The translations under genes and the position numbers were made by a program. A stretch of DNA of 64,000 nt from the human T2T-CHM13v2.0 reference genome, Homo sapiens: NCBI RefSeq assembly GCF_009914755.1, contig NC_060933.1. One strand, written 5' to 3'. Positions 811 to 64,000 of this stretch are shown in pieces (positions within the stretch are counted from its first letter, which is position 1; the number at the start of each line of letters is the position of its first letter). A model generated the notes under the pieces. That model did no database searches. It worked only from the letters and a program-made list of their open reading frames with translations, and had not been told where the DNA came from.

Positions 811-825
811 GGAATCTTCCGGAAT
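811..825 (+). promoter_or_regulatory. Perfect heat-shock element nGAAnnTTCnnGAAn (GGAATCTTCCGGAAT), first of ~22 copies in the + domain
   Basis: gGAAt-cTTCc-gGAAt matches the canonical three-pentamer HSF site. Other starts: 2534, 2829, 4682, 7177, 8480, 14337, 14965, 17951, 26028, 26941, 29004, 33026, 35244, 35817, 36277, 40142, 40955, 41883 (GGAATATTCC), 42477, 44464 (GGAAACTTCC), 46820. The motif match is direct; binding is inferred. Confidence 0.6.
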
Positions 826-29500: not shown

Positions 29501-29880
29501 ATCAATCCGAATGTAATGGAATGGAATGGAATGGAATGGAAAGGAATGGAATGGAATGGAATGCAATGGAATGGAATCAACCCGAGTACAATGGAATGGA
29601 ATGGAATGGAATGGAATGGAATGGAATGGAATGGAATCAACCTGAGTGCAATGGAATGGAGTGGAATGGAATGGAATGGAATGGAACAACCCGAATGGAA
29701 TGGAATGTAATGGAGAGTAAGGGAGTTGAATAGAATCCATCCGAAAGTAAAGGAATGGAATGGAACGGAATGGAATGGAATGGAATGGAATGGAATGGAA
29801 TGCAATGGAATGGAATCAACCCGAGTACAATGGAATAGAATGGAATGGAATGGAATGGAATGGAATGGAATGGAATGGAA

Positions 29881-32800: not shown

Positions 32801-32980
32801 TGGAATGGAATGGAATGGAATGGAATGGAATGGAATGCAATGGAATGGAATCAACCCGAGTGCAATCGAATGGAATCGAATGGAATGGAATGCAATTGAA
32901 TGGATTCAACTTGAATGGAATGGAAAGAATGGAATCAACACGAGTGGAATGGCATGGATTGGAATGGAATGTAATGGAAT
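29881..32980 (+). repeat. Head-to-tail tandem duplication, unit ~1537-1552 bp (29881-31417 and 31418-~32980)
   Basis: Paired markers AATATAATGGAATCATCC, AAACAACCAGAATGGATTG (30194/31731), CAATCCAAATG (30970/32522), CCCGAGTAGAAT, GTAACGGAGTGTAAGGG (31180/32732). Near-identical ORF translations start at 30236/31773, 30959/32511 and 31199/32751. Confidence 0.88.
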
Positions 32981-33649
32981 CAACCCGAGTACAGGGGAAT
33001 GGAATGGAATGGAATGCAATGGAATGGAATCTTCCGGAATGGAATGGAATGGAATGGAATGGAATGGAATGGAATGGAATGAAATGCAATGGATTCAACT
33101 CGATTGCAATGGAATGGAATAGAATGGAATGGAATGGAATGGAATGGAATTAAACCGAATAGAATGGAATGGAACGGAATGGAACGGAATGGAACGGAAC
33201 GGAATGGAATGGAATGGAATGCAATGGAATGGAATGGAATGGTATGGCATGGAATGGAATGGTACGGAATAGAATGGAATGGATCGAATTGTAATGGAAT
33301 GGAATTGAATGGAATGGAATGGAATGGAATGGAATGGAATCAACGCGAGTGCAGGGGAATATAATGGAACGGAATGCAATGGAATGGAATCATCTGTAAT
33401 GGAATGGAATGGAATGGAATGGAATGGAATGGAATCAACCTGAGTGCAATGGAATGGAGTGGAATGGAATGGAATGTAATGGAATGGAACAACCCAAATG
33501 GAATGGAATGTAATGGAGAGTAAGGGAGTTGAATAGAATCAATCCGAATGTAATGGAATGAAATGTAACGGAATGGAATGGAATGGAATGCAATGGAATG
33601 CAATCAACCCGAGTACAATGGAATGGAATGGAATGGAATGGAATGGAAT

Positions 33650-36600: not shown

Positions 36601-37865
36601 TAGAATGGAATGGAACGAAATGGAATGGAATGGAATGGAATGGAATGGAATGGAATGGAATGGAATGGAATGGAATGGAATCGTTCCAAGTGGAATAGGA
36701 GGGAATGTATTCGAGTGGAATGGAAAGGAATGGAATCAAACAGAGTGGAATGGAAGGGAATGGAATGGAATGGAAACTAATAGAGTGGAATCAACCCGAG
36801 TGGAATGGAATGGAATGGAATGGAATGGAAAGGAATTGAATGGAATGGAATGACTTCAAACCGAATGGAATGGAAAGGAATGGAATCAACACGAGTGGAA
36901 TGGAATGGAATGGAATGGAATGGAATGGAATGGAATCGTACGGAATAGAATGGAATGGAACGAAATGCAATGGAATGGAATGGAATGGAATGGAATGGAA
37001 TGGAATGGAAAGGAATGGAATCGTTCCGAGTGGAATAGGAGGGAATGTATTCGAGTGGAATGGAAAGGAATGGAATCAACCAGCGTGGAATGGAAGGGAA
37101 TGGAATGGAATGGAAACTAATAGAATGGAATCAACCCGAGAGGAATGGAATGGAAAGGACTGGAATGGAATGGAATGGAATGGAATTAACTCGATTGCAA
37201 TGGAATGGAATGGAATGGAAAGGAATAGAATGGAATCAACCTGAGTGGAATGGAATGGAAAGGACTGGAATGGAGTGGAATGAAATGGAATGGAATGGAA
37301 TGGAATCAACTCAATTGGAATGGAATGGAATGGAATGGAATGGAATGGAATGGAATGGAATGGAATTAACCCGAATAGAATGGAATGGAATGGAATGGAA
37401 AGGAATGGAATGGAATGGAATGGAATGGAATGGAATGGAATGGAATCAACCCGACTGCAGGGGAACGGAATGGAATGGAATGCAATGGAATGGAATCATC
37501 CGGAACGGAATGGAATGAAATGGAATTTAATCAATTCGATTGCAATGGAATGGAATGGAATGGAATGGAATGGAATGGAATTAACCCGAATAGAATGGAA
37601 TGGAATGGAATGGAATGGAAAGGAATGGAAGGGAATGGAATGGAATGGAATGGAATGGAATCAACCCGAGTGCAGGGGAATGGAATGGAATGGAATGCAA
37701 TGGAATGGAATCATCCGGAATGGAATGGAATGGAATGGAATGCAATCAACCCAATGCAATGGAATGGAGTGGAATGGAATGGAATGGAATGGAATGGAAT
37801 GGAATCAACTCGATTGCAATCGAATGGAATGGAATGGAATGGAATCAACTCGATTGCAATCGAAT
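33650..37865 (+). repeat. Direct duplication of a ~1.4-kb block (about 33650-35045 and 36460-37865), offset 2812-2817 bp
   Basis: Private markers GTACGAAATAG (33781/36593), CGTTCCAAGTGG (33865/36682), TAATAGAGTGG (33961/36778), TTTAATCAATTCG (34714/37526), CAATCAACCCAATGC (34931/37743). The ORFs 34264-34497 and 37076-37309 translate identically. Confidence 0.92.
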
Positions 37866-40800
37866 GGAATGGAATGGAATGGAATCAATCCGAGTGCAAT
37901 GGAATGGAGTGGAATGGAATGGAATGGAATGGAACAACCCGAATGGAATGGAATGTAATGGAGAGTAAGGGAGTTGAATAGAATCAATCCGAATGTAATG
38001 GAATGGAATGCAACGGAATGGAATGGAATGGAATGGAATGGAATGCAATGGAATGGAATCAACCTGAGTACAATGGAATGCAATGGAATGGAATGGAATG
38101 GAATGGAATGGAATGGAATGGAATGGAATGCCTTCACTCCGAATGGAATGGAAAGGAATGAAATCAACACGGGTGGAATGGAATGAAATGGAATGGAATG
38201 GAATGATACGGAATAGAATGGAATGGAACGAAATGGAATGGAATGGAATGGAATGGAATGGAATGGAATGGAATGGAATGGAATGGAATGGAATGGAATG
38301 GAATCGTTCCCAGTGGAATAGGATTGAATGTATTCGAGTGGAATGGAAAGGAATGGAATCAACCAGAGTGGAATGGAAGGGAATGGAATGAAATGGAAAC
38401 TAATAGAATGGAATCAACCCGAGTGGAATGGAATGGAAAGGACTGGAATGGAAAGGAATGGAATGGAATGGAATGGAATGGAATGGAATCAACGCGAGTG
38501 CAGGGGAATGGAATGGAATCGAATGGAATGGAATGGAATGGAATGGAATCAACCCGAGTGCAGGGGAATGTAATGGAACGGAATGCAATGGAATGGAATC
38601 ATCCAGAATGGAATGCAATGCAATGGAATGGAATCAACCCCAGTGCAATGGAATGGAGTGGAATGGAATGGAATGGAATGGAACAATCCGAATGGAATGG
38701 AATGTAATGGAGAGTAAGGGAGTTGAAAAGAATCAATCCGAATGGAATGGAATGGAACCGAATGGAATGGAATGGAATGGAATGGAATGGAATGGAATGG
38801 AATGGAATGCAATGGAATGGAATCAACCCGTGTACAATGGAATGGAATGGAATGGAATGGAATGGAATGGAATGGAATGGAATGATACGGAATAGAATGG
38901 AATGGAACGAAATGGAATGGAATGGAATGGAATGGAATGGAATGGAATGGAATGGAATCGTTCCGAGTGGAATAGGAGGGAATGTATTCGAGTGGAATGG
39001 AAAGGAATGGAATCAACCAGAGTGCAATGGAAGGGAATGGAATGGAATGGAAACTAATAGAATGGAATCAACCAGAGTGGAATGGAATGGAATGGAATGG
39101 AATCAACTCGATTGGAATGGAATGGAATGGAATGGAATGGAATGGAATGGAATTAACCCGAATAGAATGGAATGGAATGGAATGGAATGGAACGAAATGG
39201 AATGCAATGGAATGGAATGGAATGGAATGGAATGGAATGGAATGGAATCAACCCGAGTGCAGGGGAATGGAATGGAATGGAATGGAATGGAATGGAATGG
39301 AATGGAATGGAATGGAATCATCCGGAACGGAATGGAATGGAATGGAATGGAATCAACTGGATGGCAATGGAATGGAATGGAATGGAATGGAATGGAACCG
39401 AATGGAATGGAATGGAATTAACCGGAATAGAATGGAATGGAATGGAATGGAACGGAATGGAATGGAATGGAATGGAATGGAATGGAATGGAATGGAATGG
39501 AATCAACTCTATTGCAATCGAATGGAATGGAATGGAATTAACCAGAATAGAATGGAATGGAATGGAATGCAATGGAACGGAACGGAACGGAACGGAATGG
39601 AATGGAATGGAATGGAATGGAATGGAATGGAATGGCATGCAATGGAATCAACTGATTGCAATGGAATGGAATGGAATGGAATGGAATCAACCCGACTGCA
39701 GGGGAATGGAATGGAATGGAATGCAATGGAATGGATTCAACTTGAATGGAATGGAAAGCATGGAATCAACACGAGTGGAATGGCATGGATTGGAATGGAA
39801 TGGAATGGAATCAACCCGAGTACAGGGGAATGGAATGGAATGGAATGCAATGGAATGGAATCATCCGTAATGGAATGGAAAGGAATGGAATGGAATGGAA
39901 TGGAATGGAATGGAATGGAATGGAATGGAATCAACTCGATTGCAATCGAATGGAATGGAATGGAATTAACCCGAATAGAATGGAATGGAATGGAATGGAA
40001 TGGAACGGAACGGAACGGAATGGAATGGAATGGAATGGAATGGAATGGAAAGGAATGGAATGGAACGGAAGGGAATGGAATGGAATGGAATGGAATCAAC
40101 GCGAGTGCAGGGTAATGGAATGTAATGGAATGCAATGGAATGGAATCTTCCGGAATGGAATGGAATGGAATGGAATGGAATCAATCCGAGTGCAATGGAA
40201 TGGAGTGGAATGGAATGGAATGGAATGGAACAACCCGAATGGAATGGAATGTAATGGAGAGTAAGGGAGTTGAATAGAATCATTCCGAATGTAATGGAAT
40301 GGAATGGAACGGAATGGAATTGAATGGAATGGAATGGAATGCAATGGAATGGAATCAACCCGAGTGCAATGGAATGGAGAGGAATGGAATGGAATGGAAT
40401 GCAAACTACCCTAATAGAATGGAATGTAATGGAGTGTAAGGGAATTGAATAGAATCAATCCGAATATAATGGAATGTAATGGAATGGAATGGAATGGAAT
40501 GGAATGGAATGGAATGGAATCAACCCGAGTGCAATCGAATGGAATCGAATGGAATGCAATGCAATGGAATGGATTCAACTTGAATGGAATGGAAAGAATT
40601 GAATCAACACGAGTGGAATGGCATGGATTGGAATGGAATGGAATGGAATCAACACGAGTACAGGGGAATGGAATGGAATGGAATGCAATGGAATGGAGTC
40701 ATCCGTAATGGAATGGAAAGGAATGGAATGGAATGGAATGGAATGGAATGGAATCAACTCGATTGCAATCGAATGGAATGGAATGGAATTAACCCAAATA

Positions 40801-43800
40801 GAATGGAATGGAATGGAATGGAATGGAACGGAACGGAATGGAATGGAATGGAATGGAATGGAACGGAACGGAACGGAACGGAATGGAATGGAATGGAATG
40901 GAATGGAATCAACGCGAGTGCAGGGGAATGGAATGGAATGGAATGCAATGGAATGGAATCTTCCGGAATGGAATGGAATGGAATGGAATGGAATGGAATG
41001 GAATGGAATGGAATCAACCCGAGTGCAATGGAATGGAGTGGAATGGAATGGAATGGAATGGAACAACCCGAATGGAACAGAATGTAATGTAGAGTAAGGG
41101 AGTTGAATAGAATCAATCCGAATGTAATGGAATGGAATGGAACGGAATGGAATGGAATGGAATCGAATGGAATGCAATGGAATGGAATCAACCCGAGTTC
41201 AATGGAATGGAGGGGAATGGAATGGAATGGAATGAAAACTACCCGAATGGAATGGAATGTAATGGAGTGTAAGGGAATTGAATAGAATCAATCCTAATGT
41301 AATGGAATGGAATATAATGGAGTGTAAGGGAATTGAATAGAATCAATCCTAATGTAATGGAATGGAATGGAACGGAATGGAATGGAATGGAATGGAATGG
41401 AATGGAATGGAATGGAACGCAATGGAATGGAATCAACCCGAGTTCAATCGAATGGAATCGAATGGAATGGAATGCAATGGAATGGATTCAACTTGAATGG
41501 AATGGAAAGAATGGAATCAACACGAGTGGAATGGCATGGATTGGAATGGAATGGATTGGAATCAACCCGAGTACAGGGGAATACATTGGAATCGAATGCA
41601 ATGGAATGGAATCATCCGTAATGGAATGGAAAGGAATGGAATGGAATGGAATGGAATGGAATGGAATGGAATCAACTCGATTGCAATCGAATGGAATGGA
41701 ATGGAATTCACCCGAATAGAATGGAATGGAATGGAATGGAACGGAACGGAATGGAATGGAATGGAATGGAATGGAATGGAATGGAATGGAACGGAAAGGA
41801 AGGGAATGGAATGGAATAGAATGGAATGGAATGGAATCAACGCGAGTGCAGGGGAATGGAATGGAATGGAATGCAATGGAATGGAATATTCCGGAATGGA
41901 ATGGAATGGAATGGAATGGAATGGAATGGAATGGAATCAACCCGAGTGCAATGGAATGGAGTGGAATGGAATGGAATGGAATGGAACAACCCGAATGCAA
42001 TGGAATGTAATGGAGAGTTAGGGAGTTGAATAGAATCAATCCGAATGTAATTGAATGGAATGGAACAGAATGGAATTGAATGGAATGGAATGGAATGCAA
42101 TGGAATGGCATCAACCCGAGTGCAATGGAATGGAGAGGAATGGAATGGAATGGAATGGAAACTACCCGAATGGAATGGAATGGAATCAACCCGAGTACAG
42201 GGGAATGGAATGGAATGGAATGCAATGGAATGGAATCATCCGTAATGGAATGGAAAGGAATGGAATGGAATGGAATGGAATGGAATGGAATGGAATCAAC
42301 TCGATTGCAATCAAATGGAATGGAATGGAATTAACCCGAATAGAATGGAATGGAATGGAATGGAACGGAACGGAATGGAATGGAATGGAATGGAACGGAA
42401 CGGAATGGAATGTAATGGAATGGAATGGAATCAACGCGAGTGCAGGGGAATGGAATGGAATGGAATGCAATGGAATGGAATCTTCCGGAATGGAATGGAA
42501 TGGAATGGAATGGAATGAAATGCAATGGATTCAACTCGATTGCAATGGAATGGAATAGAATGGAATGGAATGGAATGGAATGGAATTAATCCGAATAGAA
42601 TGCAATGGAATGGAATGGAACGGAATGGAACGGAATGGAATGGAATGGAATGGAATGGAATGGAATGGAATGGAATGGTATGGAATGGAATGGAATGGTA
42701 CGGAATAGAATGGAATGGAACGAATTGTAATGCAATGGAATTGAATGGAATGGAATGGAATGGAATGGAATCAACGCGAGTGCAGGGGAATGCAATGGAA
42801 CGGAATGCAATGGAATGGAATCATCCGGAATGGAATGGAATGGAATGGAATCAACCCGAGTACAATGGAATGGAGTGGAATGGAATTGAATGGAATGGAA
42901 CAACCCGAATGGAATGTAATGTAATGGAGAGTAAGGGAGTTGAATAGAATCAATCCGAATGTAATGGAATGGAATGCAACGGAATGGAATGGAATGGAAT
43001 GGAATGCAATGGAATGGAATCAACCCGAGTACAATGGAATGGAATGGAATGGAATGGAATGATACGGAATAGAATGGAATGGAACGAAATGGAATGGAAT
43101 GGAATGGAATGGAATGGAATGGAATGGAATCGTTCCGAGTGGAATAGGAGGGAATGTATTCGAGTGGAATGGAAAGGAATGGAATCAACCAGAGTGGAAT
43201 GGAAGGGAATGGAATGGAATGGAAACTAATAGAATGGAATCAACCCGAGTGGAATGGAATGGAAAGGACTGGAATGGAATGGAATGGAATGGAATCAACT
43301 CGATTGTAATGGAATGGAATGGAATGGAATGGAATGGAATGGAATGGAATGGAATGGAATGGAATGGAATGGAGTGGAATGGAATTAACACGAATACAAT
43401 GGAAGGGAATGGAATGGAATGGAAACTAATAGAATGGAATCAACCCGAGTGGAATGGAATGGAAAGGACTGGAATGGAATGGAATGGAATGGAATCAACT
43501 CGATTGTAATGGAATGGAATGGAATGGAATGGAATGGAAAGGAATGGAATTAACCCCAATACAATGGAATGGAATGGAATGGAATGCAATGGAATGGAGT
43601 GGAATGAAATGGAATCAACCCGAGTGCAGGGGAATGGAATGGAATGGAATGCAATGGAATGGAATCATCCGGAATGGAATGGAATTTAATGGAATGCAAA
43701 GCAATGGAATCAACTCGATTGCAATGGAATGGAATGGAATGGAAAGGAATACATTGGAATCAACCCGAGTGGAATGGAATGGAAAGGACTGGAATGGAGT

Positions 43801-45019
43801 GGAATGGAATGGAATGCAATGGAATGGAATGGAATGGAATCAACTTGATTGGAATGGAATGGAATGGAATGGAATGGAATGGAATCAACCCGACTGCAGG
43901 GGAATGGAATGGAATGGAATGCAATGGAATGGATTCAACTTGAATGGAATGGAAAGAATGGAATCAACACGAGTGGAATGGCATGGATTAGAATGGAATG
44001 GAATGGAATCAACCCTAGTACAGGGGAATGGAATGGAATGGAATGCAATGGAATGGAATCATCCGTAATGGAATGGAAAGGAATGGAATGGAATGGAATG
44101 GAATGGAATGGAATGGAATCAACTCGATTGCAATCGAATGGAATGGAATGGAATTAACCCGAATAGAATGGAATGGAATGGAATGGAACGGAACGGAATG
44201 GAATGGAATGGAATGGAATGGAATGGAACGGAACAGAAAGGAATGGAATGGAATGGAATGGAATGGAATGGAATGGAATGGAATGGAATGGAATCAACCC
44301 GAGTGCAATGGAATGGAGTGGAATGGAATGGAATGGAATGGAACAACCCGAATGGAATGGAATGTAATGGAGACTAAGGGAGTTTAATAGAATCAATCCG
44401 AATGGAATGGAATGGAATGGAACGGAATGGAATTGAATGGAATGGAATGGAATGCAATGGAATGGAAACTTCCGGAATGGAATGGAAGGGAATGGAATGG
44501 AATGGAATGAAATGCAATGGATTCAACTCGATTGCAATGGAATGGAATAGAACGGAATGGAATGGAATGGAATGGAATTAATCCGAATAGAATGGAATGG
44601 AATGGAATGGGATTAACCTGAATAGAATGGAATGGAATGGAATGGAACGGAATGGAATGGAATGGAATGGAATGCAATGGAATGGAATGGAACGGAATGG
44701 AATGGTATGGAATGGAATGGAATGGTACGGAATAGAATGGAATGGAACGAATTGTAATGGAATGGAATTGAATGGAATGGAATGGAATGGAATGGAATCA
44801 ACGCGAGCGCAGGGGAATGTAATGGAACGGAATGCAATGGAATGGAATCATCAGGAATGGAATGGAATGGAATGGAATGGAATGGAATGGAATGGAATGG
44901 AATCAACCCGAGTGCAATGGAATGGAGTGGAATGGAATGGAATGCAATGGAACAACCCGAATGGAATGGAATGTAATGGAGAGTAAGGGAGTTGAATAGA
45001 ATCAATCGGAATGTAATGG

Positions 45020-46330
45020 AATGGAATGCAATGGAATGGAATGGAATGGAATCAACTCGAGTGGAAAGGAATGGAATGGAATGGAAAGGAATGGAATGAA
45101 ATCAACTCGAGTGGAATGGAATTGAATGGAATGGAATGGAATGGAATAGAAGGTAATGGAATCAACACGAGTGCAGGGGAATGGAATGGAATGGAATGCA
45201 ATGGAATGGAATCATCCGGAATGGAATGGAATGGAATGGAATCAACTCCATTGCAATGGAATGGAATTGAATGGAATGGAATAGAATGGAATGGAATTAA
45301 CCCGAATAGAATGGAATGCAATAGAATGGAATGGAACGGAACCGAATGGAGTGGAATGGAATGGAATGGAATCAACCTGAGTGCAGGGGAATGGAATGGA
45401 ATGGAATGCAATGGAATGGAATCATCCGGAATGGAATGGAATGGAATGGAATGGAATCAAACCGAGTGCAATGGAATGGAGTGAAATGGAATGGAATGGA
45501 ATGGAAACAACCAGAATGGATTGGAATATAATGGAGTGTTAGGGAATTGAATAGAATCAATCTGAATGTAATGAAATGGAATGGAACGGAATGGAATGGA
45601 ATGGAATGGAATCGAATGGAATGGAATGGAATGGAATCAACCCGAGTGGAATGGCATGGAATGGAATGCAATGGAATGGAATGGAATGGAATGGAATAGT
45701 TCGGAATAGAATGGATTGAAACAAAATGGAATGGAATGGAATGGAATGGAATGGAATGGAATAGAATGGAATGGAATGGAATCAAGTCGATTGCAGTGGA
45801 ATAGAATGGAATGGAATGGAACGGGTTGGAATGGAATGGAATGGAATGGAATGCAATTAAATGGAATGGAAAGGAATGGAATCAACCCGAGTGCAGGGGA
45901 AAGGAATGGAATGGAATGCAATGGAATGGAATGGAATGGAATGGAATGGAATGGAATGGAATCAACCCGAGTGGAATGGCATGGAATGGAATGCAAAGGA
46001 ATGGAATGGAATGGAATCAACTCGAGTGGAAAGGAATGGAATGGAATGGAAAGGAATGGAATGAAATCAACTCGAGTGGAATGGAATATAATGGAATGGA
46101 TTGGAATGGATTGCAATGGAATGAAATGGAATGGAATGGAATGGAATCAATCATTCCGAGTGGAATGGAAGGGAATGTAATGGAGTGGAAAGAAGGGAAT
46201 GGAATCAACCCGAGTGGCATGCAAGGCAATGGAATGGAATGGAAAGGAATGGAATGGAATCAACTCGATTGCAATCGCATGGAATGGAATGGAATGGAAT
46301 GGAAAGGAATGGAATGGAATGAAATGGGAT
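45020..46330 (+). repeat. Divergent HSat3 block with atypical motifs next to the breakpoint
   Basis: Paired CAACTCGAGTGG (CTCGAG at 45056/45106 and 46021/46071), AGAAGGTAATGG, ATAGTTCGG, CAAGTCGATTGCAGTGG, CAATCATTCCGAG and GGCATGCAAGGC are absent or very rare elsewhere in the window. Confidence 0.7.
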
Positions 46331-47194
46331 GGAATGGAATGCAATGGAATGGAATCAACCCGAGTGCAATCGAATGGAATCGAATGGAATGGAATGCAAT
46401 GGAATGGATTCAACTTGAATGGAATGGAAAGAATGGAATCAACACGAGTGGAATGGCATGGATTGGAATGGAATGGAATGGAATCAACCCGAGTACAGGG
46501 GAATGGAATGGAATGGAATGCAATGGAATGGAATCATCCGTAATGGAAAGGAAAGGAATGGAATGGAATGGAATGGAATGGAATGGAATGGAATCAACTC
46601 GATTGCAATCGAATGGAATGGAATGGAATTAACCCGAATAGAATGGAATGGAATGGAATGGAACGGAACGGAACGGAATGGAATGGAATGGAATGGAATG
46701 GAATGGAATGGAATGGAACGGAAAGGAATGGAATGGAATGGAATGGAATGGAATGGAATGGAATGGAATGGAATCAACGCGAGTGCAGGGGAATGGAATG
46801 TAATGGAATGTAATGGAATGGAATCTTCCGGAATGGAATGGAATGGAATGGAATCAACCCGAGTGCAATGGAATGGAGTGGAATGGAATGGAATGGAATG
46901 GAACAACCTGAATGGAATCGAATGTAATGGAGAGTAAGGGAGTTGAATAGAATCAATCCGAATGTAATGGAATGGAATGGAACGGAATGGAATTGAATGG
47001 AATGGAATGGAATGCAATGGAATGGAATCAACCCGAGTGCAATGGAATGGAGAGGAGGGGAATGGAATGGAGTGGAAACTACCCGAATGGAATGGAATGT
47101 AATGGAGTGTAAGGGAATTGAATAGAATCAATCCGAATGTAATGGAATGGAATGGAACGGAATGGAATGGAATGGAATGGAATGGAAAGAAGGG

Positions 47195-47222
47195 AATGGA
47201 ATCAACCCGAGTTGATTCCATT
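47195..47222. other. Satellite strand-inversion breakpoint: palindrome AATGGAATCAAC-CCGA-GTTGATTCCATT with 5-bp microhomology CGAGT (47208-47212)
   Basis: GGAAT switches abruptly to ATTCC. The left arm ends in CAACCCGAGT and the right arm read on - ends in CAAAGCAATGGAATCAACTCG, so both share CGAGT. Arms 47195-47206 and 47211-47222 are perfect reverse complements around a 4-nt spacer. Confidence 0.95.
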
Positions 47223-50200
47223 GCTTTGTATTCCGTTCCATTCCATTCCTTTTCATTGTATTCGGGGTAATTCCATTGCATTCCATTCCATTCCTTTCCA
47301 TTCCATTCCATTCCATTACAATGGAGTTGATTCCATTCCATTCCATTCCATTCCATTCCATTCCATTCTATTCCAGTCCTTTCCATTCCATTCCACTCGG
47401 GTTGATTCCATTCTATTAGTTTCCATTCCATTCCATTCCCTTCCATTGCACTCTGGTTGATTCCATTCCTTTCCATTTCACTCGAATACATTCCCTCCTA
47501 TTCCACTCGGAACGATTCCATTCCTTTCCATTCCATTCCATTCCATTCCATTCCATTCCATTCCATTCCATTCCATTTCGTTGCATTCCATTCCATTCCG
47601 TACCATTCCATTCCATTCCATTCCATTCCATTCGATTCCATTCCACTCGTGTTGATTACATTCCTTTCCATTCCATTCAGTTTGAAGGCATTCCATTCCA
47701 TTCAATTCCATTCCATTCCATTCCATTCCATTACATTACATTGTAGTCGGGTTGATTCCATTCCATTGCATTCTATTCCATTCCATTCCATTCCATTCCA
47801 TTCCATTCCATTCCATTCCGGATGATTCCATTCCATTGCATTCCATTCCATTCCATTCCCCTGCACTCGGGTTGATTACATTCCATTCCCTTCCCTTCCA
47901 TTCCTTTCCATTCCATTCCATTCCATTCTATTCGGGTGAATTCCATTCCATTCCATTCCATTCCATTCCATTCCATTCCATTGTAATCGAGTTGATTCCA
48001 TTACATTCCATTCCATTCCGTTCCGGATGATTCCATTCCATTGCATTCCATTCCATTCCATTCCCCTGCAGTCGGTTTGATTCCTTTCCATTCCATTCCA
48101 TTCCATTCCATTCTATTCCTTTCCGTTCCATTCCATTCCATTCCATTCTATTCGGGTTAATTCCATTCCATTCCTTTCCATTCCATTCCAATCGAGTTAA
48201 TTCCATTCCATTGCATTCCATTCCTCTCCATTCCAGTCCTTTCCATTCCATTCCACTCGGGTTGATTCCATTCTATTCCTTTCCATTCCATTCCATTGCA
48301 ATCGAGTTGATTCCATTGCATTGCATTCCATTCCATTCCATTCCGGATGATTCCATTCCATTGCATTCCATTCCATTCCATTCCCCTGCACTCGGGTTGA
48401 ATCCATTCCATTCCACTCCATTGCGTTTCATTGCATTCCATTCCATTTTATTCGGGTTAATTCCATTCCATTCTATTCCATTCCATTCCATTCCATTCCA
48501 TTACAATCGAGTTGATTCCATTCCATTCCATTCCATTCCATTCCATTCCATTCCATTCCATTCCATTCCATTCCATTCCATTCCACTCGTGTTGATTCCA
48601 TTCCTTTCTATTCCATTCGGTTTGAAGCCATTCCATCCCATTCAATTCCATTCCATTCCTTTCCATTCCATTTCGGATGATGCCATTCCATTGCTTTCCA
48701 TTCCATTCCATTCCCCTGTACTCAGGTTTATTCCATTCCATTCCATTGCAATCCATGCCATTCCACTCGTGTTGATTCCATTCTTTCCATTCCATTCAAG
48801 TTGAATCCATTCCAATGCATTCCATTCCATTCGATTCCATTGGATTTCACTCGGTTTGATTCCATGGCATTGCATTCCATTCTATTCCATTCCATTCCAT
48901 TCCATTCCATTCCTTTCTATTCCATTCCATTCCATTCGGATTCATTCTAATCAATTCCCTTACACTCCATTACATTACATTCCATTCGGGTAGTTTCCAT
49001 TCCATTCCATTCCATTCCATTCCTCTCCATTCCATTGCACACGGGTTGATTCCATTCCATTCCACTCCATTCCATTCCATTCCATTCCATTCCATTCCAT
49101 TCCGGATGATTCCATTCCATTGAATTCCATTCCATTCCATTCCCCTGCACTTGGGTTGATTCTATTCCATTCCATTCCTTTCTGTTCCATTCCATTCCAT
49201 TCCATTCCATTCTATTCGTGTTAATTCCATTCCATTCTATTCCATTCCATTCCATTGAAATCGAGTTGATTCCATTCCATTCCATTCCATTCCAGATGAT
49301 TCCATTCCATTGCATTCCATTCCATTCCATTCCCCTGCACTCGGGTTGATTCCATTCCATTCCATTCCATTCCATTCCGTTCCATTCTGTTCCATTCCAT
49401 TCTATTCGGGTTAATTCCATTCCATTCCATTCCAGTCCTTTCCATTCCATTCCACTCGGGTTGATTCCATTCTATTCCTTTCCATTCTGTTCCATTCCAT
49501 TGCAATCGAGTTGATTCCATTCGAGTTGAATCCATTCCATTCCATTCCATTCCATTCCATTCCATTGAACACGGGTTCATTCCATTCCATTCCATTCCAT
49601 TCCATTCCATTTCATTGCATTCCATTCTATTCCATACCATTCCATTCCATCCCATTCCATTCCGTTCCATTCCATGCCATTACACTCGGGTTGATTCCAT
49701 TCCTTTCCATTCCATTGTTGTTGAATCCATTCCATTCCATTCCATTCCATTCGAATCCATTCCATTGCACTCGGGTTGATTCCATTCGATTCCATTCCAT
49801 TTCATTTCATTCCATTCCATTCCATTACATTCGGATTGATTCTATTCAATTCCCTTACACTCCATTACATTCCATTCCATTCGGGATGTTTCCATTCCAT
49901 TCCATTCCATTCCACTCCATTCCATTGCATCAGGTTGATTGCATTCCATTCCATTCCATTCCATTCCATTCCATTCCGGATGATTCCATTCCATTGCATT
50001 CCATTCCATTCCATTCCCCTGCACTCGGGTTGATTCCATTCCATTCCATTCCATTCCATTCCATTCCATTCCATTCCGTTCCGTTCCGTTCCGTTCCATT
50101 CCACTCCATTCCAATCCATTCCATTCTATTCGGGTTAATTCCATTCCATTCCATTCGTGTTGATCCATTCCATTCCATTCCATTCCACTCCATTCCATTG

Positions 50201-50546
50201 CACTCGGGTTGATTCCATTCCATTCCATTCCATTCCGGATGATTCCATTCCATTGCATTTCGTTCCATTACATTCCCCTGCACTCGCGTTGATTCCATTC
50301 CATTCCATTCAATTCCATTCCATTACAATTCGTTCCATTCCATTCTATTCCGTACCATTCCATTCCATTCCATACCATTCCATTCCATTCCCTTCCATTC
50401 CATTCCGTTCCATTCCGTTCCATTGCATTCCATTCCATTCTATTCGGGTTAATTCCATTCCATTCCATTCCATTCCATTCTATTCCATGCCATTGCAATC
50501 GAGTTGAATCCATTGCATTTCATTCCATTCCATTCCATTCCATTCC

Positions 50547-50561
50547 ATTCCGGAAGATTCC
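50547..50561 (-). promoter_or_regulatory. Perfect heat-shock element (ATTCCGGAAGATTCC), first of ~12 copies in the inverted domain
   Basis: Reverse complement of the element above. Other starts: 51360, 53223, 55884, 56784, 57099, 57414, 58252, 60140, 60789 (GGAACATTCC variant), 63430, 63860. Confidence 0.6.
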
Positions 50562-53500
50562 ATTCCATTGCATTCCATTCCATTCCATTCCCCTGCACTC
50601 GCGTTGATTCCATTCCATTCCATTCCATTCCATTCCGTTCCGTTCAGTTCCGTTCCATTCCATTCGATTCCATTCCGTTCCGTTCCATTCCATTCCATTC
50701 CATTCCATTCTATTTGGGTTAATTCCATTCCATTCCATTCGATTGCAATCGAGTTGATTCCATTCCGTTCCATTCCATTCCTTTCCATTCCATTACGGAT
50801 GATTCCATTCCATTGCATTCCATTCCATTCCATTCCCCTGTACTCGGGTTGATTCCATTCCATTCCATTCCAATCCATGCCATTCCACTCGTGTTGATTC
50901 CATTCTTTCCATTCCATTCAAGTTGAATCCATTCCATTGCATTCCATTCCATTCGATTCCATTCGATTGCACTCGGGTTGATTCCATTCCATTGCATTCC
51001 ATTCCATTCCATTTCATTCCATTCCATTCCATTCCGTTCCATTCCATTCCATTACATTCGGATTGATTCTATTCAATTCCCTTACACTCCATTACATTCC
51101 ATTCCATTCGGGTAGTTTCCCTTCCATTCCATTCCATTCTTCTCCATTCCATTGCACTCGGGTTGATTCCATTCCATTGCATTCCATTCCATTCCATTCA
51201 ATTCCATTCCGTTCCATTCCATTCCATTACATTCGGATTGATTCTATTCAACTCCCGTACTCTCCATTACATTCGATTCCATTCGGGTTGTTCCATTCCA
51301 TTCCATTCCATTCCACTCCATTCCATTGCACTCGGGTTGATTCCATTCCATTCCATTCCATTCCGGAAGATTCCATTCCATTGCATTCCATTACATTCCA
51401 TTCCCCTGCACTCGCGTTGATTCCATTCCATTCCATTCCATTCCATTCCATTCCATTCCGTTCCGTTCCATTCCATTCCATTCCATTCCATTCCATTCCG
51501 TTCCGTTCCATTCCGTTCCATTCCATTCCATTCCATTCTATTCGGGTTAATTCCATTCCATTCCATTCCATTGAAATCGAGTTGATTCCTTTCCATTCTA
51601 TTCCATTCCATTCCATTCCATTCCATTCCTTTCCATTCCATTACGGATGATTCCATTCCATTGCATTCCATTCCATTCCATTCCCCTGTACTCGGGTTGA
51701 TTCCATTCCATTCCATTGCAATCCATGCTATTCCACTCGTGTTGATTCCATTCTTTCCATTCCATTCAAGTTGAATCCATTCCATTGCATTCCATTCCAT
51801 TCCATTCCCCTTCAGTCGGGGTGATTCCATTCCATTCCATTCCATTCCATTCCATTCCATTCCTTTCCTTTCCATTTAATTCCATTCCATTCTATTCGGG
51901 TTAATTCCATGCCATTGCATTCCATTCCATTCCATTCCATTCCATTCCATTCCAATCGAGTTGATTCCATTCCATTCCATTCCATTCCATTCCACTCCAT
52001 TCCAGTCCTTTCCATTCCATTCCACTCGGGTTGATTCCAATGTATTCCTTTCCATTCCATTCCATTCCATTGCAATCGAGTTGATTCCATTGCTTTGCAT
52101 TCCATTCCATTCCATTCCGGATGATGCCATTCCATTGCATTCCATTCCATTCCATTCCCCTGCACTCGGGTTGATTCCATTCCATTCCACTCCATTCCGT
52201 TCCATTCCATTCCATTCCGTTGTATTCGGGTTAATTCCATTCCATTCCACTCAATTCCATTCCATTCCAATCCATTACAATCGAGTTAATTCCATTCCAT
52301 TCCATTCCATTCCATTCCATTCCATTCCAGTCATTTCCATTCCATTCCACTCGGGTTGATTCCATTCTATTAGTTTCCATTCCATTCCATTCCCTTCCAT
52401 TCCACTCTGGTTGATTCCATTCCTTTCCATTCCACTCGAATACGTTCCCTCCTATTCCACTCTGAACGAATCCATTCTATTCCATTCCATTCCATTCCAT
52501 TTCGTTCCATTCCTTTCTATTCCGTACCATTCCATTCCATTCCATTCCTTTCCATTCCATTCCATTCCACTCGTGTTGATTCCATTCCTTTCCATTCCAT
52601 TCGGTTTGAAGGCATTCCAATCCATTCCATTCCATTCCATTCCATTCCATTCCATTCCATTCCATTCCATTGTACTCGGGTTGATTCCATTCCATTGCAT
52701 TCCATTCCATTCCATTCCATTCCATTCCGTTGCATTCCATTCCATTACATTCGGATTGATTCTATTCAACTCCCTTACTCTCCATTCCATTCCATTCCAT
52801 TCGGGTTGTTCCATTCCATTCCATTCCATTCCACTCCATTCCATTGCACTCGGGTTGATTCCATTCCATTCCATTCCATTCCATTCCGGATGATTCCATT
52901 CCATTGCATTCCGTTCCATTACATTCCCCTGCACTCGCGTTGATTCCATTCCATTCCATTCCATTCCATTCAATTCCATTCCATTACAATTCGTTCCATT
53001 CCATTCTATTCCGTGCTATTCCATTCCATTCCATACCATTCCATTCCATTCCATTCCATTCCATTCCATTCCATTCCATTCCATTCCGTTCCATTCCGTT
53101 CCATTCCATTCCATTCCATTCTATTCGGGTTAATTCCATTCCATTCCATTCCATTCCATTCTATTCCATTCCATTGCAATCGAGTTGAATCCATTGCATT
53201 TCATTCCATTCCATTCCATTCCATTCCGGAAGATTCCATTCCATTGCATTCCATTCCATTCCATTCCCCTACACTCGCGTTGATTCCATTCCATTCCATT
53301 CCATTCCATTCTGTTCCGTTCCGTTCCGTTCCATTCCATTCCATTCCATTCCATTCAATTCCGTTCCGTTCCATTCCATTCCATTCCATTCTATTTGGGT
53401 TAATTCCATTCCATTCCATTCGATTGCAATCGAGTTGATTCCATTCCATTCCATTCCATTCCATTCCTTTCCATTCCATTACGGATGATTCCATTCCATT

Positions 53501-56500
53501 GCATTCCATTCCATTCCATTCCCCTGTACTCGGGTTGATTCCATTCCATTCCATTCCAATCCATGCCATTCCACTCGTGTTGATTCCATTCTTTCCATTC
53601 CATTCAAGTTGAATCCATTCCATTGCATTGCATTCCATTCGATTCCATTCAATTGCACTCTTGTTGATTCCATTCCATTCCATTCCATTCCATTCCATTC
53701 CATTCCATTCCGTTCCATTCCATTCCATTACATTCAGATTGATTCTATTCAATTCCCTTACACTCCATTACATTCCATTCCATTCGGGTAGTTTCCATTC
53801 CATTCCATTCCATTCCTCTCCATTCCATTGCACTCGGGTTGATTCCATTCCATTGCATTCCATTCCATTCCATTCAATTCCATTCCGTTCCATTCCATTC
53901 CATTACATTCGGAATGATTCTATTCAACTCCCTTACTCTCCATTACATTCCATTCCATTCGGGTTGTTCCATTCCATTCCATTCCATTCCACTCCATTCC
54001 ATTGCACTCGGGTTGATTCCATTCCATTCCATTCCATTCCATTTCGGAAGATTCCATTCCATTGCATTCCATTACATTCCATTCCCCTGCACTCGCGTTG
54101 ATTCCATTCCATTCCATTCCATTCCATTCCGTTCCTTTCCGTTCCATTCCATTCCATTCCATTCCATTCCATTCCGTTCCGTTCTTTTCCGTTCCATTCC
54201 ATTCTATTCCATTCTATTCGGGTTAATTCCATTCTATTCCATTTGATTGCAATCGAGTTGATTCCCTTCCATTCTATTCCATTCCATTCCATTCCATTCC
54301 ATTCCTTTCCATTCCATTACGGATGATTCCATTCCATTGCATTCCATTCCATTCCATTCCCCTGTACTCGGGTTCATTCCATTCCATTCCATTCCAATCC
54401 ATGCCATTCCACTCGTGTTGATTCCATTCTTTCCATTCCATTCAAGTTGAATCCATTCCATTGCATTCCATTCCATTCCATTCCCCTGCAGTAGGGTTGA
54501 TTCCATTCCATTCCATTCCATTCCATTCCATTCCATTCCATTCCATTGCATTTCATTCCTTTCCGTTCCATTTAATTCCATTCCATTCTATTCGGGTTAA
54601 TTCCATTCCATTCCATTCCATTCCATTCCATTCCATGCCATTCCAATCGAGTTGATTCCATTCCATTCCATTCCATTCCATTCCAGTCCTTTCCATTCCA
54701 TTCCACTCGGGTTGATTCCAATGAATTCCTTTCCATTCCATTCCATTCCATTGCAATCGAGTTGATTCCATTGCTTTGCATTCCATTCCATTCCATTCCA
54801 TTCCGGATGATTCCATTCCATTGCATTTCATTCCATTCCATTCCATTCCCCTGCACTCGGGTTGATTCCATTCCATTCCACTCCATTCCGTTCCAATCCA
54901 TTCCCTTCCATTGTATTTGGGTTAATTCCATTCCATTCCATTCCATTCCATTCCATTCCATTCCATTCCATTGCATTACAATCGAGTTGATTGCATTCCA
55001 TTCCATTGCATTCCATTCCATTCCATTCCATTCCAGTCCTTTCCATTCCATTCCACTCGGGTTGATTCCATTCTATTAGTTTCCATTCCATTCCATTCCC
55101 TTCCATTCCACTCTGGTTGATTCCATTCCTTTCCAATCCACTCGAATACATTCCCTCCTATTCCACTCGGAACGATTCCATTCCATTCCATTCCATTCCA
55201 TTCCATTCTATTCCATTCCATTTCTTTCCATTCCATTCTATTCCATACCATTCCATTCCATTCGATTGCATTCCATTACATTCCTTCCCATTCCATTCTT
55301 GTTGATTCCATTCCTTTCCATTCCATTCGGTTTGAAGCCATTCCATTCCATTCCATTCCATTCCATTCCATTCCATTCCATTCCATTCCATTGTACTCGG
55401 GTTGATTCCATTCAATTGCATTCCATTCCATTCCATTCCATTCCGTTCCATTCCATTCCATTACATTCGGATTGATTCTATTCAACTCCCTTACTCTCCA
55501 TTACATTCCATTCCATTCTGGTTGTTCCATTCCATTCCATTCCATTCCACTACATTCCATTGCACTCGGGTTGATTCCATTCCATTCCATTCCATTCCAT
55601 TCCATTCCATTCCGCATGATTCCATTCCATTACCTTCTGTTCCATTACATTTCCCTGCACTCGCTTTGATTCCATTCCATTCCATTCCATTCCCCACCAT
55701 TCCATTCCATTCCATTCCATTCCATTCCATTCCATTCCATTCCATTCCGTTCCGTTCCGTTCCATTCCGTTCCATTCCATTCCATTCTATTCGGGTTAAT
55801 TCCATTCCATTCCATTCCATTCCATTCTATTCCATTCCATAGCAATCGAGTTGAATCCATTGCATTCCATTCCATTGAATTCCATTCCGGAAGATTCCAT
55901 TCCATTGCATTCCATTACATTCCATTCCCCTGCACTCGTTTTGATTCCATTCCATTCCATTCCATTCGGATTCATTCTATTCAATTCCCTTACACTCCAT
56001 TACATTCCATTCGATTCGTGTAGTTTCCATTCCATTCCATTCCATTCCTCTCCATTCCATTGCACTCGGGTTGATTCCATTCCATTCCATTCCATTCCGG
56101 GTGATTCCATTCCATTGAATTCCATTCCATTCCATTCCCCTGCACTTGGGTTGATTCCATTCCATTCCATTCCATTCCTTTCTGTTCCATTCAATTCCAT
56201 TCCATTCCATTCTATTCGTGTTAATTCCATTCCATTGTATTCCATTCCATTCCATTGAAATCGAGTTGATTCCATTCCATTTCATTCCATTCCATTCCAT
56301 TCCATTCCGTTCCATTCAGGATGATTCCTTTCCATTGTATTCCATTCCTTTCCATTCCCCTGCACTCGGGTTGATTCCATTCCATTCCATTACATTACAT
56401 TCCATTCCATTCCGATCCATTTCATTCTATTCGGGTTAATTCCATTCCATTCCATTCCACTCCATTCCAGTCCTTTCCATTCCATTCCACTCGGGATGAT

Positions 56501-57180
56501 TCCATTCTATTCCTTTCAATTCCATTCCATTCCATTGCAATCCAGTTGATTCCATTCGAGTTGAATCCATTCCATTCCATTCCATTGCACACGGGTTCAT
56601 TCCATTCCATTCCATTCCATTCCATTCCATTCCATTCCATTTCATTCCATTCCATTCTATTCCGTACCATTCCATTCCATCCCATTCCATTCCGTTCCAT
56701 TCCATACAATTACACTCGGGTTGATTCCATTCCTTTCCATTCAATTCTTGTTGAATCCATTCCATTCCATTCCATTCCATTCCTTTCCGGAAGATTCCAT
56801 TCCATTGCATTCCATTACATTCCATTCCCCTGCACTGGCGTTGATTCCATTCCATTCCATTCAATTCCATTCCATTACAATTCGTTCCATTCCATTCTAT
56901 TCCGTACCATTCCATTCCATTCCATACCATTCCATTCCATTCCATTCCATTCCATTCCGTTCCATTCCGTTCCATTCCATTCCATTCCATTCTATTCGGG
57001 TTAATCCCATTCCATTCCATTCCATAGCATTCTATTCCATTCCATTGCAATCGAGTTGAATCCATTGCATTTCATTCCATTCCATTCCATTGCATTCCAT
57101 TCCGGAAGATTCCATTCCATTGCATTCCATTACATTCCAATCCCCTGCACTCGCGTTGATTCCATTCCATTCCATTCCAT

Positions 57181-57305
57181 TCCGTTCCGTTCCGTTCCGT
57201 TCCGTTCCGTTCCATTCCATTCCATTCCGTTCCGTTCCGTTCCGTTCCGTTCCGTTCCATTCCATTCCATTCCATTCCATTCCGTTCCGTTCCGTTCCGT
57301 TCCGT
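57181..57305 (-). repeat. (GGAAC)n / (CCGTT)n CpG-rich variant cluster
   Basis: Three runs of 6, 6 and 5 TCCGT units give 17 CpGs in 125 bp. Confidence 0.85.
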
Positions 57306-63300: not shown

Positions 63301-64000
63301 ATTCGGATTGATTCTATTCAACTCCCTTACTCTCCATTACATTCGATTCCATTCGGGTTGTTCCATTCCATTCCATTCCATTCTACTCCATTCCATTGCA
63401 CTCGGGTTGATTCCTTTCCATTCCATTCCATTCCGGAAGATTCCATTCCATTACATTCCATTACATTCCATTCCCCTGCACTCGCGTTGATTCCATTCCA
63501 TTCCATTCCATTCCATTCCATTCCATTCCTTTCCGTTCCATTCCATTCCATTCCATTCCATTCCATTCCATTCCATTCCGTTCCGTTCTGTTCCATTCCA
63601 TTCCATTCCATTCTATTCGGGTTAATTGCATTCCATTCCATTCGATTGCAATCGAGTTGATTCCAATCCATTCCATTCCATACCATTCCATTCCATTCCA
63701 TTCCATTCCATTCCATTCCATTCCGTTCCATTCCGTTCCATTCCATTCCATTCCATTCTATTCGGGTTAATTCCATTCCATTCCATTGCATTCCATTCTA
63801 TTCCATTCCATTGCAATCGAGTTGAATCCATTGCATTTCATTCCATTCCATTCCATTCCATTCCGGAAGATTCCATTCCATTGCATTCCATTCCATTCCA
63901 TTCCCTTGCACTCGCGTTGATTCCATTCCGTTCCATTCCATTCCATTCCATTCCATTCCGTCCCTTTCCGTTCCATTCCATTCCATTCTATTCGGGTTAA

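What the first reader, a model, noticed from the sequence alone, without database searches (positions are those of the whole stretch)
39700..54500. Convergent G-strand domains: read-through RNA could fold into a multi-kb dsRNA hairpin
Seen: both G-rich strands point toward 47.2 kb. Module order is roughly mirrored: 39.7-40.8 kb pairs with 53.4-54.5 kb and shares the rare variant AATCATTCCGAATG (about 40280 and 53910); 42.2-44.2 kb pairs with 51.5-53.5 kb. Established: stress-induced SatIII transcripts are mainly G-rich (GGAAU) Pol II RNAs that scaffold nuclear stress bodies. Inference: this is a convergent-transcription point. A transcript crossing it changes from GGAAU to AUUCC and can self-pair in almost any 5-nt register. 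It could be a defined source of C-rich SatIII RNA and of dsRNA (ADAR, Dicer, MDA5/PKR substrate), and the DNA could extrude a cruciform.
Basis: partly seen in the sequence, partly recalled or inferred. Interest (0 to 1): 0.72.

Follow-up and report, generated by a model that had tools for sequence, protein, structure and literature searches.

The report
Repeated inversion junction in chr9 satellite
This is a real head-to-head strand flip inside the giant chromosome 9 satellite III array, but it is one of about 53 near-identical copies of an old inversion junction, and nothing yet shows that it makes double-stranded RNA.

Summary
The strand switch is real. GC skew goes from +0.6 to -0.6 at window 47.2 kb, so the G-rich strands converge. 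The break lies at 47211-47212, inside the CAACCCGAGT decamer, within a 12-bp inverted repeat with a 4-nt loop.

The "mirrored modules" are not special. Mirror-position identity averages 83.8% against an 83.5% background. The 1.33-kb block at 39.7-41.0 kb matches its near-mirror partner at 95.8%, but also three other right-arm sites at 92-95%.

A 1-kb or 3-kb read-through RNA is predicted to fold into a long imperfect hairpin. Random left+right chimeras fold at least as well.

The proposed "junction k-mer" is not unique. It has 38 exact and 53 near-exact copies, all on chr9 between 51.1 and 75.7 Mb, in both orientations. The 19 copies examined share a ~2.5-kb conserved core.

The chr9 HSat3B5 array is already reported to hold over 200 inversion breakpoints. 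Published strand-specific qRT-PCR puts C-rich SatIII RNA below 1e-4 of G-rich RNA after heat shock.

Verdict: an inherited, amplified inversion junction. The dsRNA role is untested and probably minor.

The parts
1..47212 (+). Left arm. HSat3 (B5-type) with the G-rich (GGAAT)n strand on +. It runs beyond the window start.
   Evidence: GC skew about +0.6. GGAAT 5368 vs ATTCC 6, and CAACCCGA 186 vs 0. The HSat3B5 marker 24-mer is found 23 times on the - strand.
47211..64000 (-). Right arm. The same satellite inverted, with the G-rich strand on -. It runs beyond the window end. The next listed tail-to-tail junction is about 212 kb further on, at C9:52339082.
   Evidence: GC skew about -0.6. ATTCC 1860 vs GGAAT 1. 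Marker 24-mer found 10 times on +. Junction map.
47195..47222 (.). Junction proper. A 12-bp perfect inverted repeat (47195-47206 and 47211-47222) surrounds the 4-nt loop CCGA (47207-47210). The left arm keeps the whole CAACCCGAGT decamer (47203-47212). The right arm starts at GTTGATTCC (47211). The two overlap by GT.
   Evidence: Sequence read. The central 12-bp stem appears in the DNA fold.
47192..47228 (+). It is unique in the window but multi-copy in the genome.
   Evidence: 1 hit in the window. 38 exact copies (25 forward, 13 reverse). 53 copies with up to 3 mismatches (34 forward, 19 reverse), all on C9 between 51.07 and 75.68 Mb.
45960..48460 (.). Conserved junction core of about 2.5 kb, shared by the junction copies. 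Outside it the copies fall to array background.
   Evidence: Per 250-bp tile within -1.0 to +1.25 kb, median identity is 94-98% and 10-17 of 19 copies reach at least 93% (8 of 19 in the -1.25 kb tile). Outside, medians are 81-94%. The control allowing any shift within the arm gave the same extent (18 copies).
39660..40990 (+). Left copy of a 1.33-kb unit that recurs in the right arm. It contains the rare 14-mer at 40278-40291.
   Evidence: 95.8% to the reverse complement of 53202-54527, 94.3% to 50521-51851, 94.8% to 60410-61295 and 92.3% to 57374-58728. 14-mer.
53202..54527 (-). Right-arm copy closest to 39660-40990, 230 bp off mirror. It contains the rare 14-mer at 53906-53919.
42518..43061 (+). 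Second inverted similarity block. It pairs with 52643-53201 at 95.5%, 1292 bp off mirror.
   Evidence: In one search, tile 52711-53210 has its best hit at 42509 (96.0%).

Best explanation
Window 47.2 kb is one copy of a recurrent head-to-head inversion junction, here called C1, inside the chr9 HSat3B5 array.

Origin (inferred). An ancestral inversion broke the array within the common motif GGAATCAACCCGAGTGCAATGG, leaving a 2-nt GT overlap. It was a two-break inversion, not a fold-back duplication, because the arms are not mirror copies.

Spread (partly shown, partly inferred). The junction and about 2.5 kb around it were carried across some 25 Mb of the array by very large segmental duplications. 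Copies were flipped by further recombination between oppositely oriented blocks. That would explain why the same junction sequence occurs in both orientations.

Mirrored modules. Both arms are built from the same loose 2.5-2.8-kb repeat units, so the mirror pattern is ordinary array periodicity.

Consequences. The junction is most likely a neutral structural scar. A G-strand transcript that ran across it would carry complementary GGAAU and AUUCC halves and would be predicted to form an imperfect hairpin. That holds for any convergent HSat3 junction. Published strand measurements suggest that little such RNA accumulates.
For: Shown:
- Abrupt strand switch.
- The break sits in the decamer, with a 12-bp palindrome.
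- 38 exact and 53 near-exact copies of the 37-mer, all on C9, 34 forward and 19 reverse, against 0 for the reversed control.
- All 19 fetched copies are true switches, with skew about +0.6 then -0.6.
- About 2.5 kb of core is shared at 94-100% identity.
- One copy 8.7 Mb away is about 100% identical over the full 10 kb (L022).
- Each of the seven 1-mismatch variants occurs exactly twice, with partners 8.7-8.8 Mb or 10.6 Mb apart. That indicates inheritance by multi-Mb duplication.
- Mirror identity equals background.
- Best identity between arms (91.4%) equals best identity within arms (90.8% and 90.7%).
- Rare 20-mer spacing peaks at about 2.8 kb in the left arm and 2.5-2.7 kb in the right.
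- The tail-to-tail junction type D1 has 85 copies. Its C-rich arm ends at the reverse complement of GTGCAATGG. That is exactly where C1's left arm leaves the intact 22-mer, which has 39 copies in the window.

Literature:
- The chr9 HSat3B5 array 'contains over 200 inversion breakpoints' (bioRxiv 10.1101/2021.07.12.452052, section 7 read).
- The HSat3B5 marker 24-mer from Table 1 of PMC4022460 occurs 33 times in the window.
Against: - I fetched flanks for only 19 of the 37 other exact copies. The core and flank picture therefore rests on about half the copies, several of which are duplicates of one another.
- I found no intact version of the second break site (0 hits in the window). The single reciprocal inversion model is only half supported.
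- C1 (53 copies) and D1 (85 copies) differ in number, and other convergent junction types remain unlisted.
- I do not know why homology among copies stops after about 2.5 kb. Preservation of the core by selection is not excluded.
- Neutrality is an inference. No RNA, chromatin or population data were examined.
Confidence: 0.8

Rival explanations
1. Under heat shock, G-strand transcription reads through C1-type junctions. It yields RNAs with a GGAAU 5' half and an AUUCC 3' half that fold in cis into kb-scale imperfect dsRNA. These would be the source of C-rich SatIII RNA and substrates for ADAR, Dicer, PKR or MDA5.
For: - Convergent geometry.
- Strong predicted hairpins: -578.6 kcal/mol for 1 kb with z = -32. 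For 3 kb, -1860 kcal/mol, 96% of pairs inter-arm and 7 helices of 30 bp or more.
- No AATAAA or ATTAAA on the + strand for 11.9 kb after the junction.
- C-rich SatIII RNA exists at a low level, rises with stress and 'parallels' G-rich RNA, and its origin is unexplained (PMC2241877 passages; PMC9032817 passages).
- 53 identical junctions would pool the signal.
- No paper linking HSat3 inversions to antisense RNA or dsRNA turned up in searches.
Against: - No RNA evidence was examined.
- The C-rich to G-rich ratio after heat shock is below 1e-4 (derived from the passages). Free read-through would give about 0.7-1.8e-2. That is my estimate of N*l/A, with about 100 convergent junctions, 2-5 kb transcripts and a 27.6 Mb array (figures).
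- No C-rich FISH signal was seen at stress bodies.
- Helices average 9.6 bp, so the duplex is heavily interrupted.
- Hairpin potential is generic and not specific to this site.
- Polymerases converging from both arms may collide (inference).
Confidence: 0.1
2. Assembly artefact. The junction would be a mis-join or a palindromic chimeric read built into T2T-CHM13.
For: Zero-spacer head-to-head joins in satellite DNA are a typical shape for long-read chimeras (my knowledge; nothing in the calls supports this).
Against: - A missed-adapter chimera gives mirror-identical arms. Here mirror identity next to the junction is 78-82%.
- The junction recurs 53 times, with paired private variants and diverged flanks.
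- The published annotation reports over 200 such breakpoints in this array.
Confidence: 0.02
3. Recent fold-back (palindromic) inverted duplication, with arms that began as mirror copies and with the 39.7-41.0 and 53.2-54.5 kb blocks as remnants.
For: - Both arms end in the same motif (GGAATCAAC), giving a 12-bp palindrome with a 4-nt spacer.
- The best inter-arm block is only 230 bp off mirror and carries a private 14-mer.
Against: - Mirror identity is at background everywhere else, including the 2.5-kb core that is 94-100% conserved among copies.
- The same left block matches three other right-arm sites at 92-95%.
- With 4-5 copies of that unit in a 16.8-kb arm, one falling near mirror has roughly a 0.4 chance (my estimate).
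Confidence: 0.03

Closest known systems
Inversion breakpoints (strand switches) of the chr9 HSat3B5 array in T2T-CHM13 (Altemose et al., bioRxiv 10.1101/2021.07.12.452052)
   Same: Same array, same phenomenon. It is an abrupt switch of satellite strand within HSat3B5 on chr9. The preprint counts over 200 of them (section 7 read).
   Different: The text I read gives only the count. Three results come from my calls and do not appear in that text:
- One head-to-head junction sequence accounts for 53 of the breakpoints and one tail-to-tail sequence for 85.
- The head-to-head copies examined share a 2.5-kb core.
- Their copies pair up across 8.7-Mb and 10.6-Mb duplications.
The preprint's supplementary tables S6 and S7 could not be seen and may already list this.
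DUX4-induced bidirectional HSATII transcription forming nuclear dsRNA foci (Shadle et al. 2019; seen only as a citation and one sentence in PMC10505914)
   Same: A pericentromeric pentamer-derived satellite whose two strands, when both are transcribed, give dsRNA that binds ADAR1.
   Different: In that case the dsRNA comes from transcription of both DNA strands and was demonstrated experimentally. Here dsRNA would arise in cis from one transcript crossing an inversion, and it is only predicted.
Inverted-repeat (hairpin) RNA sources such as inverted Alu pairs in transcripts (my knowledge, not from a call)
   Same: Two oppositely oriented copies of a repeat within one transcript fold into an imperfect duplex.
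   Different: The arms here are a 5-nt-periodic satellite that can pair in many registers, at roughly 80-84% complementarity. No transcript has been shown.

Membership tests
Human satellite 3, subfamily B5 (chr9 array) | Dominant (GGAAT)n / (ATTCC)n pentamer | tested here: met
   About 111-114 copies per kb on the G-rich strand of each arm.
Human satellite 3, subfamily B5 (chr9 array) | Interspersed CAACCCGA(G/A)T-type decamer. Its status as an HSat3 hallmark is recalled. PMC2241877 calls it the 'terminator sequence' without giving the letters in the passages read. | tested here: met
   CAACCCGA occurs 186 times in the left arm (+) and its reverse complement 58 times in the right arm.
Human satellite 3, subfamily B5 (chr9 array) | Subfamily-enriched 24-mer listed for HSat3B5 in Table 1 of PMC4022460 | tested here: met
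   33 exact hits against 0 expected, with strand following the arm.
Human satellite 3, subfamily B5 (chr9 array) | Location in the chr9 pericentromeric block | tested here: met
   The window is G000:C9:52080001-52144000 (and the hub's annotation).
Satellite-array inversion breakpoint (strand switch) | Abrupt change of repeat polarity with the same satellite on both sides | tested here: met
   Best identity between arms (91.4%) equals that within arms (90.7-90.8%).
Long palindrome or cruciform-forming inverted repeat | Near-perfect arm complementarity in mirror register with a short spacer | tested here: not met
   Only 12 bp are perfect. Mirror identity is 78-82% in the first 2.5 kb. The DNA fold needs loops of up to about 20 nt.
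Fold-back inverted duplication | Arms are mirror copies of one another | tested here: not met
   Mean mirror identity of 83.8% equals the background of 83.5%.
dsRNA-producing satellite locus (as for HSATII in DUX4-expressing cells) | RNA from both polarities detected, with dsRNA shown by antibody, editing or Dicer products | not testable with these tools
   No RNA data are available here. The literature passages report very low C-rich SatIII RNA.

The most novel reading that the evidence does not exclude
The 53-copy C1 junction family, together with the other convergent junctions of the chr9 array, would be the physical origin of the unexplained low-level, stress-induced C-rich SatIII RNA. That RNA would be made only as the 3' part of G-strand read-through transcripts. 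It would snap back in cis into imperfect dsRNA and be quickly edited, diced or degraded, which would explain why its steady-state level is so low. The chr9 heterochromatin block would then be a stress-gated, copy-number-variable source of endogenous dsRNA.
Probability: 0.1. Interest if true: 0.7.

Novelty: new member of a known kind. Interest (0 to 1): 0.33.

Why it matters
Strand switches in the chr9 HSat3 array are already on record, so the structure alone is ordinary.

Two points may be useful:
- The breakpoints are not independent events. One head-to-head junction (53 copies) and one tail-to-tail junction (85 copies) dominate. Their variants trace multi-Mb duplications, which gives markers for reconstructing how the largest human satellite array grew and flipped.
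- The C1 37-mer is chr9-specific and multi-copy. It is therefore a sensitive pooled probe, not a single-locus tag, for asking whether SatIII transcription ever crosses an inversion. That would settle where antisense SatIII RNA comes from.

Oppositely oriented blocks of near-identical satellite, hundreds of kb long, are also natural substrates for recurrent inversions in 9qh (inference).

Tried and rejected
- BLAST of the left arm against the right arm timed out on the satellite DNA. I replaced it with rare-k-mer and tile alignments.
- The first tile alignment used the wrong end-gap setting and gave meaningless identities. It was redone.
- A lenient local alignment chained 4.9 kb at 83.5%, which is just background. 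It was redone with stringent scoring.
- My scan for the palindrome centre could not handle the 4-nt loop. Its centre table should be ignored.
- Rare 20-mer anti-diagonals: the near-mirror diagonal (sum 94150, 36 pairs) ranks 4th, behind three non-mirror diagonals with 61, 55 and 39 pairs.
- An Rfam scan of 39700-54500 found 0 families.
- Canonical three-unit HSE motifs occur 22 times in the left arm and 12 times in the right arm (as the reverse complement). HSEs work in either orientation, so this does not set transcription direction.
- The hypothetical intact second break site was not found.
- The Science version, PMC9233505, is not held.
- One search returned no answer. A lighter version ran.
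- Flanks of 18 further junction copies could not be fetched.
Full report

Yes for the strand switch.
- In 1-kb bins, GC skew is +0.56 to +0.69 from 1 to 47000 and -0.56 to -0.67 from 48001 to 64000. The 47001-48000 bin is intermediate.
- At 200-bp resolution no other window in either arm approaches a flip.
- GGAAT/ATTCC counts are 5368/6 on the left and 1/1860 on the right.
- The 14-mer AATCATTCCGAATG occurs only at 40278 (+) and 53906 (-).

The sequence shows the left arm keeping a complete CAACCCGAGT decamer at 47203-47212. The right arm begins with GTTGATTCC at 47211, so the two overlap by GT. Around this lies a 12-bp perfect inverted repeat (47195-47206 and 47211-47222) with the 4-nt loop CCGA. 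It forms the central stem of the DNA fold. The G-rich strands therefore do point at each other.

**2. Are the arms mirrored?**

Not beyond what a periodic array gives.
- I cut the right arm into 33 tiles of 500 bp, reverse-complemented them and fitted them to the left arm.
- Mean identity to the mirror position (+-1 kb) was 83.8%. The median-scoring left-arm block gave 83.5% and the best place anywhere gave 91.4%.
- Next to the junction (47.2-49.7 kb) mirror identity is 78-82%.
- Only 3 of 33 tiles have their best hit in the mirror zone.
- Best identity within an arm is the same as between arms: 90.8% for the right arm and 90.7% for the left. The two arms are the same sequence population.
- Rare 20-mers recur at about 2.8 kb on the left and 2.5-2.7 kb on the right. 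A k-mer similarity matrix shows the same unit order in both arms when both are read G-strand forward. Any tandem array cut by an inversion would look like this.

Stringent local alignment listed 13 inverted blocks.
- The same left block also matches 50521-51851 (94.3%), 60410-61295 (94.8%) and 57374-58728 (92.3%).
- The second pair holds for 544 bp only: 42518-43061 against 52643-53201, 95.5%, 1292 bp off mirror.
- Other blocks lie far from mirror. For example, 46555-47187 pairs with 63077-63699 at 97.0%.

It is essentially met, apart from one pair that leads by 1-1.5 percentage points.

**3. Hairpin and cruciform potential**

- A 1000-nt RNA centred on the junction folds to -578.6 kcal/mol, against -314.8 +-8.3 for 20 shuffles. 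The opposite-strand transcript gives -557.9.
- A 3000-nt RNA gives -1860 kcal/mol with 1186 of 1236 pairs inter-arm. The duplex is broken into 129 helices averaging 9.6 bp. Nineteen are 16 bp or longer, seven are 30 bp or longer, and the longest is 45 bp.
- Twelve in-memory chimeras of a random left-arm 500-mer with a random right-arm 500-mer folded to -558 to -688 kcal/mol (mean -616, sd 32). Single-polarity controls gave -88 to -108.
- The 'pairs in any register' claim is therefore right. The hairpin owes nothing to this junction's particular arrangement.
- For DNA, 200 nt around the centre fold to -59.2 kcal/mol, but only through bulges and an internal loop of about 20 nt beyond the 12-bp stem. 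I infer that cruciform extrusion is improbable.

**4. What the junction really is**

The window's own genome could be searched.
- The 37-mer has 38 exact copies, 25 forward and 13 reverse. All lie on contig C9 between 51.07 and 75.68 Mb, and the reversed control gives 0.
- With up to 3 mismatches there are 53 copies: 34 forward and 19 reverse, made up of 38 exact, 14 with one mismatch and 1 with two.
- I fetched +-5 kb around 19 of the 37 other exact copies.
- All 19 are true strand switches.
- Compared with the window, they share a core from about -1.25 kb to +1.25 kb. Median tile identity from -1.0 kb on is 94-98%, and 10-17 of 19 copies reach at least 93%; the -1.25 kb tile reaches that in 8 of 19.
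- Outside the core, identity is 81-94%. It is no better than random 5-kb pieces of the window even when any shift within the arm is allowed (18 copies).
- One copy, L022 at C9:60.83 Mb, is about 100% identical across all 10 kb.

The seven 1-mismatch variants each occur exactly twice.
- Partners are 8.72-8.83 Mb apart: 53.02/61.74, 53.78/62.54, 53.81/62.57 and 54.51/63.34 Mb.
- Or they are 10.59-10.62 Mb apart: 55.78/66.37, 56.58/67.19 and 58.70/69.32 Mb.

The junction is therefore inherited and has been copied with multi-Mb blocks.

**5. The partner junctions**

- A generic tail-to-tail pattern gave 371 nested matches per strand, dominated by one sequence.
- That type, D1 (..CCATTGCAC|ACGGAATGG..), has 85 copies with up to 1 mismatch, 49 forward and 36 reverse, all on C9.
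- A second type, D2, has 11 copies.
- A generic head-to-head pattern that cannot catch C1 found only about ten further C9 sites.
- Near the window the listed junctions alternate correctly. C1 at 52,127,210 is followed by D1 at +211.9 kb, C1 at +12.7 kb, D1 at +112.9 kb and C1 at +84.6 kb. Elsewhere, same-class neighbours show that some types remain unlisted.
- D1's C-rich arm ends at the reverse complement of GTGCAATGG. That is exactly where C1's left arm departs from the intact 22-mer GGAATCAACCCGAGTGCAATGG, which occurs 39 times in the window.
- I read this as C1 and D1 being reciprocal products of one break. That is an inference. The intact form of the second break was not found.

The same junction sequences occur in both orientations. 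This is what recombination between oppositely oriented blocks would produce, because it flips the segments between them without creating new junctions (inference).

**6. Comparison with what is known**

- The window is HSat3B5 by four tests: pentamer, decamer, the subfamily 24-mer of PMC4022460 Table 1 (33 hits; passage read) and chr9 location.
- The centromere-maps preprint states that the chr9 HSat3B5 array 'contain[s] over 200 inversion breakpoints' (10.1101/2021.07.12.452052, section 7 read in full; other passages). The kind of feature is therefore already known.
- The text I could read does not say that the breakpoints fall into a few recurrent junction sequences. Its supplementary tables were not visible to me.
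- Reviews confirm G-strand-biased, HSF1-driven Pol II transcription, a 'slight' antisense increase of unexplained origin, and transcript sizes of 2-5 kb or more (PMC9032817 passages; PMC10505914 passages).
- No paper linking HSat3 inversions to antisense RNA or dsRNA appeared in searches. Passages of PMC11526998 and PMC11622622 hold no mention of inversions.

**7. How likely is the dsRNA idea?**

- Valgardsdottir et al. (PMC2241877, passages read) measured both strands by tagged qRT-PCR. G-rich RNA rises about 1e4-fold on heat shock and C-rich RNA about 10-fold.
[quoted passage not shown] They saw no C-rich FISH signal.
- Suppose G-strand transcripts of length l started uniformly and ran freely over N convergent junctions in an array of length A. 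The C-rich share of transcribed bases would then be N*l/A. With about 100 junctions, 2-5 kb and 27.6 Mb, that is roughly 0.7-1.8e-2 (my estimate, from figures).
- The observed level is about 100-fold lower. Several explanations are possible: read-through is rare, polymerases collide, or the fold-back product is quickly destroyed or escapes RT-PCR. The data cannot separate these.
- C-rich levels 'parallel' G-rich ones, which is compatible with a by-product.
- I give the functional-dsRNA reading about 0.1.

**8. Verdict**

- The finding is a true structural feature of a known kind, with a sound but generic in-silico consequence and no evidence of function.

Noticed in passing
G000:C9 52.1-54.5 Mb vs 60.8-63.3 Mb, and 55.8-58.7 Mb vs 66.4-69.3 Mb; window 42210-52210 vs locus L022: There are two multi-megabase segmental duplications inside the chr9 HSat3 array. 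Each 1-mismatch variant of the junction 37-mer occurs exactly twice, 8.7-8.8 Mb or 10.6 Mb apart. The window's junction +-5 kb is about 100% identical to C9:60.83 Mb.
   Followed up: partly
G000:C9 52.34-76.36 Mb (nearest to the window: C9:52339071-52339093, about 212 kb right of the junction): A single tail-to-tail junction sequence (..CCATTGCAC|ACGGAATGG..) has 85 copies, 49 forward and 36 reverse. Its break falls at the same position of the 22-mer GGAATCAACCCGAGTGCAATGG as the head-to-head junction. This suggests the two are reciprocal ends of one ancestral inversion. A second type (..CCATTAC|GGAATGG..) has 11 copies.
   Followed up: partly
window about 45960-48460, and the same span in L009-L027: Homology among the junction copies stops after about 1.25 kb on each side, even when any shift within the arm is allowed. 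I do not know why a junction spread by very large duplications keeps only a 2.5-kb recognisable core. Turnover of the array interior is my guess.
   Followed up: partly
window 33711-34710 vs 36523-37522: A local direct duplication at 97.8-99.2% identity with a 2.8-kb offset. It is far above the roughly 91% typical best match within the arm and looks like a recent tandem unit duplication.
   Followed up: no
window 46555-47187 vs 63077-63699; 47350-47732 vs 33992-34374: The sequences immediately flanking the junction have their best inverted relatives 13-16 kb away in the other arm (97.0% and 96.3%), not at mirror positions.
   Followed up: no
whole window: Poly(A) hexamers are strand-biased. 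AATAAA occurs only on the G-rich strand (6 in the left arm, 4 in the right). On the + strand the first AATAAA or ATTAAA after the junction is at 59126. Three-unit HSE-like motifs occur 22 times in the left arm and 12 times in the right.
   Followed up: no
G000:C7 58.7-59.0 Mb; also C1, C2, C10, C14, C17: The generic head-to-head and tail-to-tail pentamer patterns also hit a few sites on other chromosomes, for example a cluster on C7 at 58.73-59.04 Mb. Small HSat strand switches therefore exist outside chr9.
   Followed up: no
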